From the IMG/VR virus record IMGVR_UViG_3300027625_000002: a stretch of DNA of 64,000 nt; one strand, 5' to 3'. The number at the start of each line of letters is the position of its first letter. Positions within the stretch are counted from its first letter, which is position 1. Source of the DNA: a virus. Below the pieces are notes generated by a model, which was not told the origin of the DNA, did no database searches, and saw nothing but the letters and a program-made list of their open reading frames with translations. Positions 57,320 through 57,959 of this stretch are shown here, in pieces. The position numbers and the translations under genes are program-made.

Positions 57320-57545
57320 TTAGCTTTTGTAGCTACGTTGTAGCCCGCCGTCAAGACCGTCAAGACTCACTTTCAACCGCATCGCGTGACGGATCCACTC
57401 CGAGACCGTAGTGAAATTAGCTTTCTGTGCCGCGCACTGCCACTTCTCCCACTCGTCCTCCGAGACGCGGACCCTCACGGTGTGATCGAGGTTCGCTCTC
57501 CCGCTCTTGGGCTCGCTCTTGGGCTCTTTAGCCTTCTTCCGCATG
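57320..57545 (-). CDS. ribbon-helix-helix (CopG/MetJ-like) DNA-binding protein
   Basis: LDHTVRVRVSEDEWEKWQCAAQKANFTTVSEWIRHAM: beta-strand + two helices pattern; flanked by repeated 18-bp sites. Confidence 0.55.
57323..57340. promoter_or_regulatory. operator-like site TTGTAGCTACGTTGTAGC (copy 1)
   Basis: Exact 18-bp repeat of 57629..57646; contains palindrome GTAGCTAC; 4 bp upstream of start of 56966..57319. Confidence 0.5.
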
Positions 57546-57628
57546 CGCCACAACGTAGCCACAAAAATACCGCCCCGCAAGACCCGGCTCGAGATAATTG
57601 CCCGCACCCCTGGCGCCCTCAGATTTTG

Positions 57629-57646
57629 TAGCTACGTTGTAGCTCG
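57629..57646. promoter_or_regulatory. operator-like site TTGTAGCTACGTTGTAGC (copy 2) in divergent intergenic region
   Basis: Identical to copy 1; degenerate inverted third copy at ~57551..57566. Confidence 0.5.
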
Positions 57647-57681
57647 ACAGACCGCAAAGCGGTCAGGAAAGACGGAAAACA

Positions 57682-57959
57682 TGATCATCCAGAAAGCATT
57701 CCTCGCCCTCGCCATGGTGGCAGGCGTCTCGGCAGTCACGCTCACCCCCGCCGTCGCGGAGGCTCGAGGCGGCCATGGCGGTGGCCACTTCAGTGGCGAC
57801 CATTCCAGCAGCGCCCATTACGGCGCAGGTCACTCTTACGGCGGGCACTACGGCTATCGCACTCCCTACGGCTACGGCTACCGTCCGTACTTCAGCGGCT
57901 GCGCGTACGTGACGGCGTGGGGTCAGTGCGTCCGGCCAGGCTACCGATACGGCTGGTAA
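57682..57959 (+). CDS. secreted Gly/His/Tyr-rich small protein
   Basis: ATG 57682 in ORF 57507..57959; signal peptide then GGHGGGHFSGDH...GYGYRPY. Confidence 0.5.

What the first reader, a model, noticed from the sequence alone, without database searches (positions are those of the whole stretch)
57320..57700. RHH regulator bracketed by exact 18-bp TTGTAGCTACGTTGTAGC sites; divergent secreted GY-rich gene
Identical 18-mers, each containing the palindrome GTAGCTAC and a TTGTAGC direct repeat, lie at 57323..57340 and 57629..57646. The first sits between the RHH stop and the next gene's ATG, 4 bp upstream of it. The second lies in the divergent promoter region. A degenerate inverted copy overlaps the RHH start (~57551..57566). 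The second site is 35 bp upstream of the only local plus-strand gene, which encodes a secreted Gly/His/Tyr-rich peptide. This looks like an autoregulated switch.
Basis: seen in the sequence. Interest (0 to 1): 0.55.

Follow-up and report, generated by a model that had tools for sequence, protein, structure and literature searches.

The report
Small repressor with three operator sites
A small ribbon-helix-helix repressor gene in an uncultivated peat-soil mobile element carries three copies of its probable binding site, one over each of three promoters (its own and those of two secreted-protein genes); this is an ordinary kind of circuit, but the site is of the same type that toxin-antitoxin regulators use across many bacteria.

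Summary
The exact 18-mer TTGTAGCTACGTTGTAGC occurs twice, at 57327-57344 and 57626-57643, 3-4 nt off the stated coordinates. An inverted copy with two mismatches lies at 57547-57564. Nothing similar occurs elsewhere in the 64 kb.

Two diverged relatives (72-80% protein identity) keep the same three genes and all three sites at the same positions.

Each site overlaps a sigma-70-like promoter:
- P_RHH: TTGCGG-17-TACGTT-7-ATG
- P_117: TTGACG-17-TACAAA-6-ATG
- a weaker P_GY

The RHH gene and the 117-aa gene look leaderless. The first site is not intergenic. It lies inside the RHH 3' codons, which relatives read in three different frames, so the constraint is on the DNA.

The same motif class (tandem TGTAGCTACA, 11-bp period) sits just upstream of RelB/DinJ antitoxin genes in at least 81 unrelated loci, and next to BrnT toxin genes.

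The best reading is an RHH repressor that represses itself and two secreted-protein genes. That is negative feedback, not a demonstrated switch. No binding was tested. It is a new member of a known kind, of moderate interest.

The parts
57624..57643 (+). Site A: operator copy TTTTGTAGCTACGTTGTAGC (exact 18-mer at 57626-57643). It overlaps the putative -10 of the GY-gene promoter.
   Evidence: Conserved at the same place in L011 and L012.
57547..57566 (-). Site B: operator copy TTTTGTGGCTACGTTGTGGC (two A>G changes). It covers the spacer, -10 and discriminator of the RHH gene's own promoter and ends 2 nt before the ATG.
   Evidence: L011 and L012 have TTTTTGTAGCTACGATGTAGC at the same position, also 2 nt before the ATG. 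The A-to-B offset is exactly 80 bp in all three lineages.
57325..57344 (+). Site C: operator copy identical to site A. It lies inside the last codons of the RHH gene, and in the spacer and -10 of an internal promoter for the 117-aa gene. In the sense of the genes it reads GCTACAACGTAGCTACAAAA.
   Evidence: The DNA is conserved in L011 and L012, while the protein tail is read in another frame.
57320..57544 (-). RHH gene, 74 aa (MRKKAKEP...TVRVRVSEDEWEKW...SEWIRHAMRL...). It has a beta-strand with an R-x-R reading head, then two helices and a disordered tail.
   Evidence: JGI call of 74 aa. Pfam NikA-like PF21983 at E=6.8e-5, below the cut-off. PHROG 876 'transcriptional repressor' at E=0.007. 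AF2 monomer: helices 29-41 and 47-68, tail 63-74 with pLDDT <50.
57575..57580 (-). Putative -35 (TTGCGG) of P_RHH. A 17-bp spacer leads to the -10 TACGTT (57552-57557), then 7 nt to the ATG at 57544, giving a leaderless mRNA.
   Evidence: TCTTGCGG is an invariant island in an otherwise diverged spacer. The same layout occurs in L263 and L264.
57552..57557 (-). Putative -10 (TACGTT) of P_RHH, at the centre of site B.
   Evidence: In RelB/DinJ loci a -35-like TTG peaks exactly 17 bp upstream of the central TACAAT/TACATT of the motif.
57349..57354 (-). Putative -35 (TTGACG) of P_117, inside RHH codons (Leu-Asp). A 17-bp spacer containing site C leads to the -10 TACAAA (57326-57331), then 6 nt to the ATG at 57319.
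   Evidence: It scores 9 of 12 and is the single best of 1667 ATGs in the window. L011 and L012 have TTGACA-17-TACAAA-6-ATG. L262, L263 and L264 have TTGAC(C/G)-17-(TATGGT/CATACT/TATAAC)-6/7-ATG. L243 has TTGACA-tttc-GCTACAACGTAGC-TACAAT.
57326..57331 (-). Putative -10 (TACAAA) of P_117, formed by the T-rich end of site C. It lacks the usual final T.
   Evidence: The strict consensus scan does not accept it.
56966..57319 (-). 117-aa gene. It has an N-terminal signal-peptide-like segment (MTNTGKKFLVSFLLAAAVVALPASVHA). The mature part is predicted as one helix plus a curved antiparallel sheet (cystatin/NTF2-like).
57681..57959 (+). 92-aa Gly/His/Tyr-rich gene with a signal-peptide-like N-terminus and a conserved C-terminal Cys loop (CAYVTAWGQC).
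   Evidence: Only four homologues were found in 5.8 billion clusters. No family match.
57610..57638 (+). Putative P_GY: a weak -35 CTGGCG (57610-57615), a 17-bp spacer, and the -10 TACGTT (57633-57638) at the centre of site A. The predicted start is near 57645.
   Evidence: Inference. In L011 and L012 the site ends 14-15 nt before the ATG with an AGGTG Shine-Dalgarno in between, which fits a start just after the site. This is the weakest of the three promoters.
57650..57664 (+). Hairpin GACCGC-AAA-GCGGTC in the GY leader. It lies within a 22-23-nt insertion specific to the window lineage.
57349..57366 (.). Tandem 9-bp duplication (cgtcaagac x2 on the + strand, gtcTTGACG x2 in gene sense). It is part of a 22-nt insertion relative to L011 that shifts the frame of the RHH tail yet leaves a TTGACG 4 nt from site C.

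Best explanation
The 74-aa ribbon-helix-helix protein is a DNA-binding repressor, and the three 18-20-bp sites are its operators. Each site holds GTAGC-type half-sites repeated at an 11-bp period: one full palindrome, TGTAGCTAC(G/A), plus a further TGTAGC. This fits two RHH dimers on one face of the helix.

Each operator overlaps a sigma-70-type core promoter:
- Site B covers the -10 of the repressor's own promoter, which gives negative autoregulation.
- Site A covers the -10 of the divergent promoter of the secreted Gly/His/Tyr-rich peptide gene.
- Site C fills the spacer and -10 of an internal promoter that is written into the last codons of the RHH gene and drives the downstream 117-aa secreted protein.

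The RHH and 117-aa mRNAs are probably leaderless, because the ATG lies 6-7 nt after the -10. The expected behaviour is a burst of the two secreted proteins until the repressor accumulates, followed by shut-off.

Shown here: the sites, their conservation, the promoter geometry, and the link between this motif class and RHH antitoxin genes elsewhere. Inferred: binding by this protein, the stoichiometry, repression, the transcription starts, and the biological role.
For: 1. There are three sites and no others in 64 kb.

2. L011 and L012 have RHH proteins 72% and 80% identical to the window's. They keep the three genes and the three sites in register. The A-to-B offset is exactly 80 bp, while the sequence between the sites diverges. 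Conserved islands are the sites, TCTTGCGG and TTGAC(A/G).

3. Site C DNA is conserved although the protein tail is read in different frames: LQRSYKS* in the window, YNVATKTK* in L011, RATT* in L262. The tail is predicted to be disordered.

4. Promoter geometry was scored as matches to TTGACA plus TATAAT, with a 17-bp spacer and 6-7 nt to the ATG. The 117-aa start scores 9 of 12, the best of 1667 ATGs in the window (P about 0.0006). Downstream-gene starts score 9-10 in the five other loci, including relatives 31-37% identical (L262, L263, L264). RHH starts score 6 to 9.

5. The degenerate motif TTGTRGCTACRWTGTRGC was scanned in public genomes and metagenomes. In 81 of 239 fetched loci it lies within 150 nt of a RelB/DinJ-type RHH antitoxin gene. 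All 22 such ORFs that were tested match Pfam RelB PF04221, as does the E. coli DinJ control. A -35-like TTG peaks exactly 17 bp upstream of the motif's central TACAAT.

6. The exact window 18-mer precedes RelB-type genes in L215 and L246. L243 has TTGACA-N4-GCTACAACGTAGC-TACAAT, the same geometry as the window's internal promoter. BrnT toxin genes also adjoin the motif. E. coli dinJ has the degenerate form TTGAGCTACAATTCAAGCT.

7. The window protein's strand TVRVRV has the same R-x-R pattern as VVRARI of the RelB/DinJ proteins.
Against: - No binding or transcription data exist.
- The protein is only weakly recognisable as an RHH: Pfam NikA-like is below the cut-off, the AF2 monomer has pLDDT 60, and Foldseek finds no match.
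- It is not a profile-level member of the RelB family (hhalign probability 4%). Sharing an operator class is therefore analogy, not homology proven here.
- The strict consensus promoter scan finds no promoter in 56900-58100. P_RHH matches only 3+3 of 12, P_117's -10 (TACAAA) lacks the canonical last T, and P_GY has a poor -35.
- Only about half of nearby genes have a Shine-Dalgarno, and stop-start overlaps are common. The lack of one before the RHH and 117-aa genes therefore does not by itself show leaderless mRNAs. TAAATG coupling could explain expression of the 117-aa gene.
- B-to-C distances (219, 173 and 185 bp) are not in helical phase, so looping is not supported.
- The host and the element type are unknown.
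Confidence: 0.72

Rival explanations
1. The sites are operators, but another protein binds them: either the conserved neighbouring PadR regulator, or a host RelB/DinJ- or BrnA-type antitoxin whose operators have the same sequence class. The local RHH protein would then do something else.
For: A PadR gene lies about 400-650 bp downstream in the window, L011 and L012. The same motif class serves RelB/DinJ loci in many bacteria, and BrnT toxin genes adjoin it. This includes an exact 18-mer in a peat Acidobacteriaceae MAG (L193), 210 nt from a BrnT gene.
Against: The distant relatives L262, L263 and L264 have the RHH gene plus GTRGC repeats at the same promoter positions, with no PadR gene called in those short loci. 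Relatives that have PadR and the 117-aa homologue but lack the RHH gene (L013, L016) lack the motif. PadR operators known to me are ATGT-N8-ACAT-type inverted repeats (recalled, not tested). The site co-occurs strictly with this RHH gene.
Confidence: 0.1
2. The repeats are only promoter sequence: a duplicated promoter module with -10 elements, recognised by host or element-encoded RNA polymerase or sigma factor, with no repressor involved.
For: Every copy contains a -10-like hexamer (TACGTT or TACAAA) at the right distance from a start codon. In RelB loci the central TACAAT is placed 17 bp from a -35-like TTG.
Against: Site C is inverted relative to its promoter compared with sites A and B, and it uses a different part of the motif as its -10. 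Conservation covers the whole 18-20 bp, including positions that carry no promoter information. The 11-bp-period GTAGC repeats persist in relatives whose -10 hexamers differ (TATGGT, CATACT, TATAAC). In other genomes the motif accompanies autoregulated RHH antitoxin genes.
Confidence: 0.06
3. The RHH gene and the downstream 117-aa gene form a type II toxin-antitoxin pair: an RHH antitoxin with a novel toxin, autoregulated through a TA-type operator.
For: The operator class is the one used by RelB/DinJ and seen next to BrnT toxin genes. The two genes abut (TAAATG), and the first gene is a small RHH.
Against: The 117-aa protein has a signal-peptide-like N-terminus and a cystatin/NTF2-like predicted fold, so it would be exported. 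The RHH protein has no folded C-terminal toxin-binding domain; its tail is short, read in variable frames and predicted to be disordered. Homologues of the 117-aa gene occur without any RHH gene (L013-L020). RHH relatives are followed by unrelated genes. There are no PADLOC or Pfam toxin matches.
Confidence: 0.03
4. The motif acts at the RNA level. A small hairpin (GCUAC-AAC-GUAGC) next to the start codons would control translation or mRNA stability.
For: The motif is self-complementary and lies 2-7 nt from two start codons that lack a Shine-Dalgarno.
Against: Sites A and B would lie upstream of, or at, the predicted transcription starts. There is no Rfam match. The same motif in RelB loci lies upstream of a separate Shine-Dalgarno, with -35 elements at promoter distance. 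The orientation differs between sites.
Confidence: 0.03

Closest known systems
Phage P22 immI region: Arc (and Mnt) ribbon-helix-helix repressors on the Pant/Pmnt divergent promoters (from my own knowledge of the literature)
   Same: A small RHH repressor in a mobile element. It binds as two dimers to a roughly 21-bp operator that overlaps core promoter elements of back-to-back divergent promoters. It autoregulates negatively, and the regulated genes are shut off after an initial burst.
   Different: There is no detectable sequence relationship (no Pfam Arc match). This locus has three operators, including one written into the repressor's own 3' codons for an internal promoter. Its mRNAs are probably leaderless, and its targets are two secreted proteins.
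RelB/DinJ-family type II antitoxins (Pfam PF04221), e.g. E. coli DinJ, an RHH dimer that represses dinJ-yafQ (PMC4996492)
   Same: The same operator class: TGTAGCTACA-type palindromes at an 11-bp period, with the -10 embedded in the operator. The exact window 18-mer precedes RelB-type genes in L215 and L246. The beta-strand shows the same R-x-R pattern.
   Different: The window protein does not match the RelB profile. It has no C-terminal toxin-binding domain and no toxin gene next to it. Most RelB operators have a CAAT or CATT centre and a complete second palindrome, whereas the window's have a CGTT centre and a second half-site only.
NikA-like relaxosome accessory RHH proteins (Pfam PF21983)
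   Same: This is the only Pfam family with a hit: E=6.8e-5 and 23.4 bits against a cut-off of 27. Some distant relatives pass the cut-off (P0029, P0034, P0036, P0047).
   Different: No relaxase, oriT or conjugation genes are called within about 10 kb. The sites sit on promoters of neighbouring genes, not at a nick region.
CopG / omega (pMV158, pSM19035) plasmid RHH repressors acting on repeated short sites (from my own knowledge)
   Same: RHH dimers bind cooperatively to short repeats in direct or inverted orientation that overlap promoters. One repressor controls several promoters.
   Different: The half-site sequence and spacing differ, and the regulated genes are different (copy number and partition genes there, secreted proteins here).

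Membership tests
Ribbon-helix-helix (RHH) DNA-binding superfamily | An N-terminal beta-strand with alternating polar and hydrophobic residues, followed by two helices (beta-alpha-alpha). The functional unit is a dimer. | tested here: inconclusive
   The sequence pattern HTVRVRVSEDEWEKW...TTVSEWIRHAM fits. The AF2 monomer gives an extended 21-27, then helices 29-41 and 47-68, but mean pLDDT is 60, and Foldseek finds no PDB match. Dimer prediction was not possible with these tools.
Ribbon-helix-helix (RHH) DNA-binding superfamily | A significant profile match to a curated RHH family. | tested here: inconclusive
   PF21983 NikA-like: E=6.8e-5 and 23.4 bits, below the 27-bit cut-off. NCBIfam RelB_antitoxin: E=0.092 for P0003. 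PHROG 876 repressor: E=0.007. Distant relatives found with the family profile pass the PF21983 cut-off, which gives transitive support.
RelB/DinJ antitoxin family (PF04221) | A profile match to PF04221, including the C-terminal toxin-binding segment (..LPF..). | tested here: not met
   No PF04221 hit at E<=0.1. hhalign of the 3-sequence family against 23 RelB proteins gives probability 4.2%, although the alignment is in the expected register. No LPF segment is present.
RelB/DinJ antitoxin family (PF04221) | An adjacent RelE/YafQ-type toxin gene. | tested here: not met
   The downstream gene encodes a 117-aa protein with a signal-peptide-like N-terminus and a cystatin-like predicted fold. There is no toxin family match.
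RelB/DinJ antitoxin family (PF04221) | An autoregulatory operator of TGTAGCTACA-type repeats overlapping the promoter. This feature was derived here, not taken from the literature. | tested here: met
NikA-type relaxosome accessory proteins (PF21983) | The gene is encoded next to a relaxase and oriT in a conjugative or mobilisable element. | tested here: not met
   No relaxase or type IV secretion Pfam families were found among the genes called within about 10 kb, or in the larger window ORFs that were scanned. Only part of the window was scanned.
Autoregulated repressor-operator circuit | The protein binds the sites and lowers transcription from the overlapping promoters. | not testable with these tools
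   This needs EMSA or footprinting, reporter fusions and 5'-end mapping.
Leaderless mRNA genes | Transcription starts at, or within a few nt of, the A of the start codon. | tested here: inconclusive
   The -35/17/-10/6-7/ATG geometry is highly enriched: 9-10 of 12 at six downstream-gene starts, against P=0.0006 for >=9 among window ATGs. No transcript data exist, and the strict consensus scan finds nothing.

The most novel reading that the evidence does not exclude
The element's RHH protein uses the same operator class as host RelB/DinJ antitoxins, a class also found next to BrnT toxin genes, and the two systems cross-talk. In one direction, the element's repressor would sit on host toxin-antitoxin promoters and so tamper with TA-based abortive defence. 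In the other, host antitoxins would hold the element's secreted-protein cassette off until they are degraded under stress or infection, making the cassette a sensor of host TA status. An exact copy of the 18-mer lies 210 nt from a BrnT toxin gene in a peat Acidobacteriaceae MAG (L193). A second, smaller novelty is a family-wide 'overprinted' promoter-operator in the regulator's own C-terminal codons, read in three frames.
Probability: 0.1. Interest if true: 0.7.

Novelty: new member of a known kind. Interest (0 to 1): 0.4.

Why it matters
The circuit itself is textbook: an RHH repressor on operators that overlap promoters. Three by-products are useful.

1. A clear consensus operator emerges for a large part of the RelB/DinJ antitoxin family (tandem TGTAGCTACA palindromes, 11-bp period, with the -10 in the centre). 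The same motif also lies next to BrnT toxin genes. I could not find this consensus described in the open-access literature searched.

2. This is a clean example of a promoter plus operator written into the disordered C-terminal codons of the regulator gene. It is kept at the DNA level while the protein tail changes reading frame.

3. It gives testable predictions of three transcription starts, two of them leaderless, in an uncultivated element.

If the shared operator class reflects real cross-talk with host toxin-antitoxin systems, it would be a new way for a mobile element to read or blunt host defence.

Tried and rejected
- **Exact 18-mer in IMG/VR viral contigs:** absent.
- **blastn of 54000-60000 against 50,697 phage records:** no match.
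- **117-aa protein, P0026 and P0038 in viral contigs:** no relatives.
- **Degenerate motif scans of metagenome and genome collections:** About 280 chance hits are expected in 596 Gb, so single hits mean nothing. Only the association with neighbouring genes was used.
- **A recurrent hit, (A/G)GTCTTGTAGCTACGTTGTGGCTGAGGC (23 loci):** unrelated to the finding. I guessed it was rRNA, but it has no Rfam match.
- **PDB sequence search with the RHH profile:** only spurious hits to designed repeat proteins.
- **Foldseek of the RHH monomer model:** nothing.
- **afdb50 library:** unavailable.
- **PADLOC and Rfam:** no hits.
- **Literature searches for TGTAGCTACA, GTAGCTAC and GAGCTACAA:** only primers and unrelated sequences. 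The DinJ structural papers are not held.
- **DNA looping between sites B and C:** rejected, because the distances (219, 173 and 185 bp) are not phase-conserved.
- **An antisense promoter at site C:** rejected, because no -35-like element is conserved on that side (read).
- **Absence of a Shine-Dalgarno as evidence for leaderless mRNAs:** rejected as an independent argument, because only about half of neighbouring genes have one.
- **Element type:** not settled. Most ORFs are orphans.
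Full report
**1. The observation**

The 18-mer TTGTAGCTACGTTGTAGC occurs exactly twice, at 57327-57344 and 57626-57643, both on the + strand. A copy with two mismatches, TTGTGGCTACGTTGTGGC, lies at 57547-57564 on the - strand. With up to 3 mismatches these are the only matches in 64 kb. The expectation is 0.03, and 0 of 100 shuffles reach three.

The identity between the two exact copies extends to 20 nt, TTTTGTAGCTACGTTGTAGC. Relaxed patterns (GTRGC-N6-GTRGC, TGTRGCTAC) again find only these three places, against 0.2-0.3 expected. 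The motif is therefore not a generic repeat of this element.

- The first site lies inside the last codons of the RHH ORF (..GGLQRSYKS*). The stop TAA abuts the next ATG (TAAATG).
- The degenerate copy ends 2 nt upstream of the RHH ATG at 57544.
- The second site ends 37 nt before the GY gene's ATG at 57681.

**2. Genes**

Independent gene calls on identical metagenome contigs (peat-series JGI samples and Logan assemblies) give three genes:
- a 74-aa protein, 57544..57320 on the - strand (some callers extend it to 95 aa from a GTG);
- a 117-aa protein, 57319..56966 on the - strand;
- a 92-aa protein, 57681..57959 on the + strand.

The 74-aa protein has the RHH sequence pattern, but its database matches are weak:
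- Pfam NikA-like PF21983: E=6.8e-5, below the cut-off.
- PHROG 876 'transcriptional repressor': E=0.007.
- NCBIfam RelB_antitoxin: E=0.09 for a homologue.

An AF2 monomer model has mean pLDDT 60. It shows an extended segment at 21-27, helices at 29-41 and 47-68, and a low-confidence tail at 63-74. Foldseek found nothing.

The family is very small. Only 24 representatives reach E<=0.001 among 1.84 billion. Several of those pass the NikA-like cut-off.

The GY-rich protein also has a signal-peptide-like N-terminus. It carries a conserved C-terminal Cys loop, CAYVTAWGQC, and has only four homologues. PADLOC gives no matches.

**3. Diverged relatives keep the sites**

Two loci carry RHH proteins 72% (L011) and 80% (L012) identical to the window's. 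Both have the same three genes and all three sites in register.

- Site A reads GAGCTACAAYGTAGCTACARA.
- Site B reads ATTTTTGTRGCTACGWTGTRGC and lies 2 nt before the ATG in all three lineages.
- Site C reads GCYACAACGTAGCTACAAAA, followed by (A/G)CTAAATG.

The A-to-B offset is exactly 80 bp in all three lineages, although the sequence between the sites is poorly conserved. The conserved islands are the sites, TCTTGCGG, and TTGAC(A/G) upstream of site C.

The DNA of site C is conserved while the protein tail is read in different frames: LQRSYKS* in the window and (Y/H)NVATK(T/A)K* in L011 and L012. A 22-nt insertion containing a 9-bp tandem duplication shifts the frame in the window. The constraint is therefore on the DNA, not on the peptide.

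More distant homologues of the 117-aa gene (50-54% identity, L013-L020) have no RHH gene, no GY gene and no motif. The motif travels with the RHH gene.

**4. Each site overlaps a promoter-like arrangement**

Read in the direction of the genes:

| Promoter | -35 | Spacer | -10 | To ATG |
|---|---|---|---|---|
| P_RHH | TTGCGG | 17 bp | TACGTT (window), TACGAT (L011, L012) | 7 nt |
| P_117 | TTGACG (window), TTGACA (L011, L012) | 17 bp, holding GCTACAACGTAGC | TACAAA | 6 nt |
| P_GY | CTGGCG (weak) | 17 bp | TACGTT | see below |

For P_GY, in L011 and L012 only 14-15 nt carrying an AGGTG Shine-Dalgarno separate the site from the ATG. The window has a further 22-23-nt insertion there that carries a hairpin.

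I scored this geometry as matches to TTGACA plus TATAAT, with a 17-bp spacer and 6-7 nt to the ATG, for all 1667 ATGs of the window. The 117-aa start scores 9 of 12 and is the single best. P(>=9) is 0.0006, and P(>=7) is 0.01.

Three distant family members have RHH proteins 31-37% identical to the window's (P0026, P0038, P0037; loci L262-L264). At the RHH 3' end they show the same design:
- a -35 TTGAC(C/G) encoded by Leu-Asp codons;
- a 17-bp spacer holding GTRGC repeats at an 11-bp period;
- a -10 (TATGGT, CATACT or TATAAC);
- 6-7 nt, then the ATG of an unrelated downstream gene. These starts score 9-10.

Their own starts are TAGACA-17-TACGTT-6-ATG (L263, score 8) and TTGACA-17-CACACT-6-ATG (L264, score 9). 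In L262 the tail reads ...LDRATT*, which is the motif in the third frame.

Caveats:
- The tool's strict consensus scan finds no promoter in 56900-58100.
- P_RHH in the window scores only 6.
- TACAAA lacks the canonical last T.
- Only about half of neighbouring genes have a Shine-Dalgarno, so its absence is not informative.

**5. The motif class elsewhere**

I scanned TTGTRGCTACRWTGTRGC in the metagenome and genome collections. What the hits lie next to is informative.

- In 81 of 239 fetched loci, a RelB/DinJ-type RHH antitoxin ORF (..VVRARID..GLSVSDAIRL..LPF..) starts within 150 nt. This holds for 76 of 172 hits with a CAAT or CATT centre.
- All 22 such ORFs that were tested match Pfam RelB PF04221, as does the E. 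coli DinJ control.
- In these loci the motif is a tandem of 10-bp palindromes, TGTAGCTACA-N-TGTAGCTACA. Positions flanking the searched 18-mer complete the second palindrome.
- A -35-like TTG peaks exactly 17 bp upstream of the central TACAAT/TACATT. The mean -35 score is 2.8 at spacer 17, against about 1.0-2.0 at the other spacers tested. The -10 is therefore embedded in the operator, as in the window.
- The exact window 18-mer lies 32-33 nt upstream of RelB-type genes in L215 (a Rhodoferax MAG) and L246.
- L243 has TTGACA-tttc-GCTACAACGTAGC-TACAAT. This is the same geometry as the window's P_117, TTGACG-gcgg-GCTACAACGTAGC-TACAAA.
- BrnT toxin genes (PF04365) adjoin the motif in L176 and L194. 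In L193, a peat Acidobacteriaceae MAG, the exact 18-mer lies 210 nt from a BrnT gene.
- E. coli dinJ has a degenerate version, TTGAGCTACAATTCAAGCT, just upstream of its LexA-box region.

DinJ is known to be an RHH dimer that represses its own operon (PMC4996492). I found no open-access paper that describes this operator consensus.

**6. Relationship of the window protein to RelB/DinJ**

The beta-strand TVRVRV has the same Arg-x-Arg pattern as VVRARI, and hhalign aligns the two families in the expected register. The match is not significant, however (probability 4%). The window protein also lacks the toxin-binding C-terminal part and has no toxin gene beside it. It works like a RelB/DinJ-type operator reader but is not shown to be a member of that family. 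No relaxase context supports a NikA-type role.

**7. Mechanism proposed**

RHH dimers would bind the GTAGC-type half-sites, two dimers per site at an 11-bp spacing. This would block RNA polymerase at three promoters: the RHH gene's own (site B), the divergent GY-peptide gene (site A), and the internal promoter of the 117-aa gene (site C).

The expected dynamics are a transient burst of the two secreted proteins, then shut-off with homeostatic repressor levels. This resembles Arc in the phage P22 immI region (my own knowledge). It is negative feedback; nothing indicates a bistable switch.

- **Shown:** the sites, their conservation at the DNA level, the promoter geometry, and the association of this motif class with autoregulated RHH genes.
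- **Inferred:** binding by this protein, the stoichiometry, repression, the transcription starts, leaderless translation, and the roles of the two secreted proteins, which remain unknown.

**8. Alternatives**

- **Binding by PadR or by host antitoxins.** This is possible but less likely, because the motif co-occurs with the RHH gene and not with PadR.
- **Promoter only.** This does not explain the full-length conservation, the inverted use at site C, or the persistence of the 11-bp GTAGC repeats in relatives whose -10 hexamers differ.
- **Toxin-antitoxin pair.** This is contradicted by the exported, cystatin-like downstream protein and by the independent distribution of the two genes.
- **RNA-level role.** This is unsupported: there is no Rfam match, and sites A and B are predicted to lie at or upstream of the transcription starts.

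**9. Context**

The window is 62% GC, and nearly all genes are on the - strand. Most ORFs are small orphans. It contains a tmRNA, a tRNA-Met, RtcB, a DNA methylase, an S24-peptidase protein and a major-vault-protein-like gene. It has no match in phage or IMG/VR collections. It is probably a large phage or another mobile element of an unknown peat-soil host. This was not resolved.

**10. Verdict**

Corrections are needed on anatomy: there are three promoters, site C lies in coding sequence, and the degenerate copy sits on the autoregulated promoter. The 'switch' label also needs correcting. It is a new member of a well-known kind. Interest is moderate because of the shared RelB/DinJ-type operator class and the overprinted promoter-operator.

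Noticed in passing
window 48757-51369 (-): An 870-aa ORF matches the eukaryote-type major vault protein domains: MVP_shoulder PF11978 (E=1.5e-29) and Vault_3 repeat PF17795 (E=3.7e-8). This is unusual in a prokaryotic mobile element. Its 90%-identity cluster has seven members, all unnamed.
   Followed up: partly
window 34789-35266 (-): A tmRNA gene (tag peptide ANDNAFAPALAA) lies directly next to a tRNA-Met gene. An S24-peptidase (LexA/CI-like) ORF follows at 35329-36192.
   Followed up: no
window 47540-55544 (-): A possible RNA-repair cluster. It comprises RtcB ligase (54120-55544; Pfam RtcB on record for the identical protein), a weak RNA-ligase-1-like ORF (47540-48385, below the cut-off) and a weak phosphoribosyltransferase-like gene (52720-53517).
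   Followed up: no
window 56565 (-), start of the PadR gene: The PadR ORF has an internal ATG at 56565 preceded by TTGCAA-17-TATCGT-7-ATG (score 8 of 12). This suggests a leaderless 107-aa PadR rather than the 140-aa ORF. An ATG at 19218 (-), inside the 356-aa ORF 18229-19299, shows TTGCGA-17-TATCTT-6-ATG.
   Followed up: partly
L013 5245-5282; L016 658-695 (also L014, L015, L017, L018): In relatives that lack the RHH gene, the 117-aa homologue is preceded by a different conserved element, TTGCGC-GGGGYGTRAAGGGGTRT-TATGAC-6 nt-ATG, with a CCCCTT/AAGGGG inverted repeat. This is again a leaderless-type geometry. Gene callers appear to have over-extended these N-termini. The element is absent from the window.
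   Followed up: partly
L021-L259 (e.g. L023, L092, L187, L237); L260 990-1050: A widespread operator consensus for RelB/DinJ antitoxin genes across many phyla: tandem TGTAGCTACA palindromes with the -10 (TACAAT) at the centre. The central hexamer reads TACAAT in the gene direction in 55 of 85 CAAT/CATT cases. E. coli dinJ has a degenerate version. I did not find it described in the papers searched.
   Followed up: yes
L176, L194, L193 3177-3724: The same motif lies next to BrnT toxin genes (PF04365). In L193, an Acidobacteriaceae MAG from palsa peat, the exact window 18-mer lies 210 nt from the BrnT gene.
   Followed up: partly
L060 3763-3785, L078, L230: SWIM zinc-finger protein genes have the motif abutting their ATG (..TACAATGTAGCCATG). 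This is another leaderless-looking arrangement with the motif's TACAAT as the -10.
   Followed up: no
L026 6444-6475 and 22 other loci: A highly conserved 28-mer, (A/G)GTCTTGTAGCTACGTTGTGGCTGAGGC, recurs in 23 fetched loci (Saccharibacteria MAGs and others). It has no Rfam match at the gathering threshold. It is unrelated to the finding and its nature is unknown.
   Followed up: partly
L264 2965-3003 and 3140-3165: In this distant relative (beta-strand HTVKIRIT) the repeats over the RHH promoter are GGGGCCA at an 11-bp period, and the 3' site is GTGGCC-N5-GTAGCC. This may reflect co-variation of the reading head and the half-site.
   Followed up: no
window 57349-57366 and 57650-57664: There are two lineage-specific insertions. 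One is a 9-bp tandem duplication inside the RHH 3' end that recreates a -35-like TTGACG at the original distance from site C. The other is a 22-23-nt insertion with a perfect 6-bp hairpin in the GY leader.
   Followed up: partly
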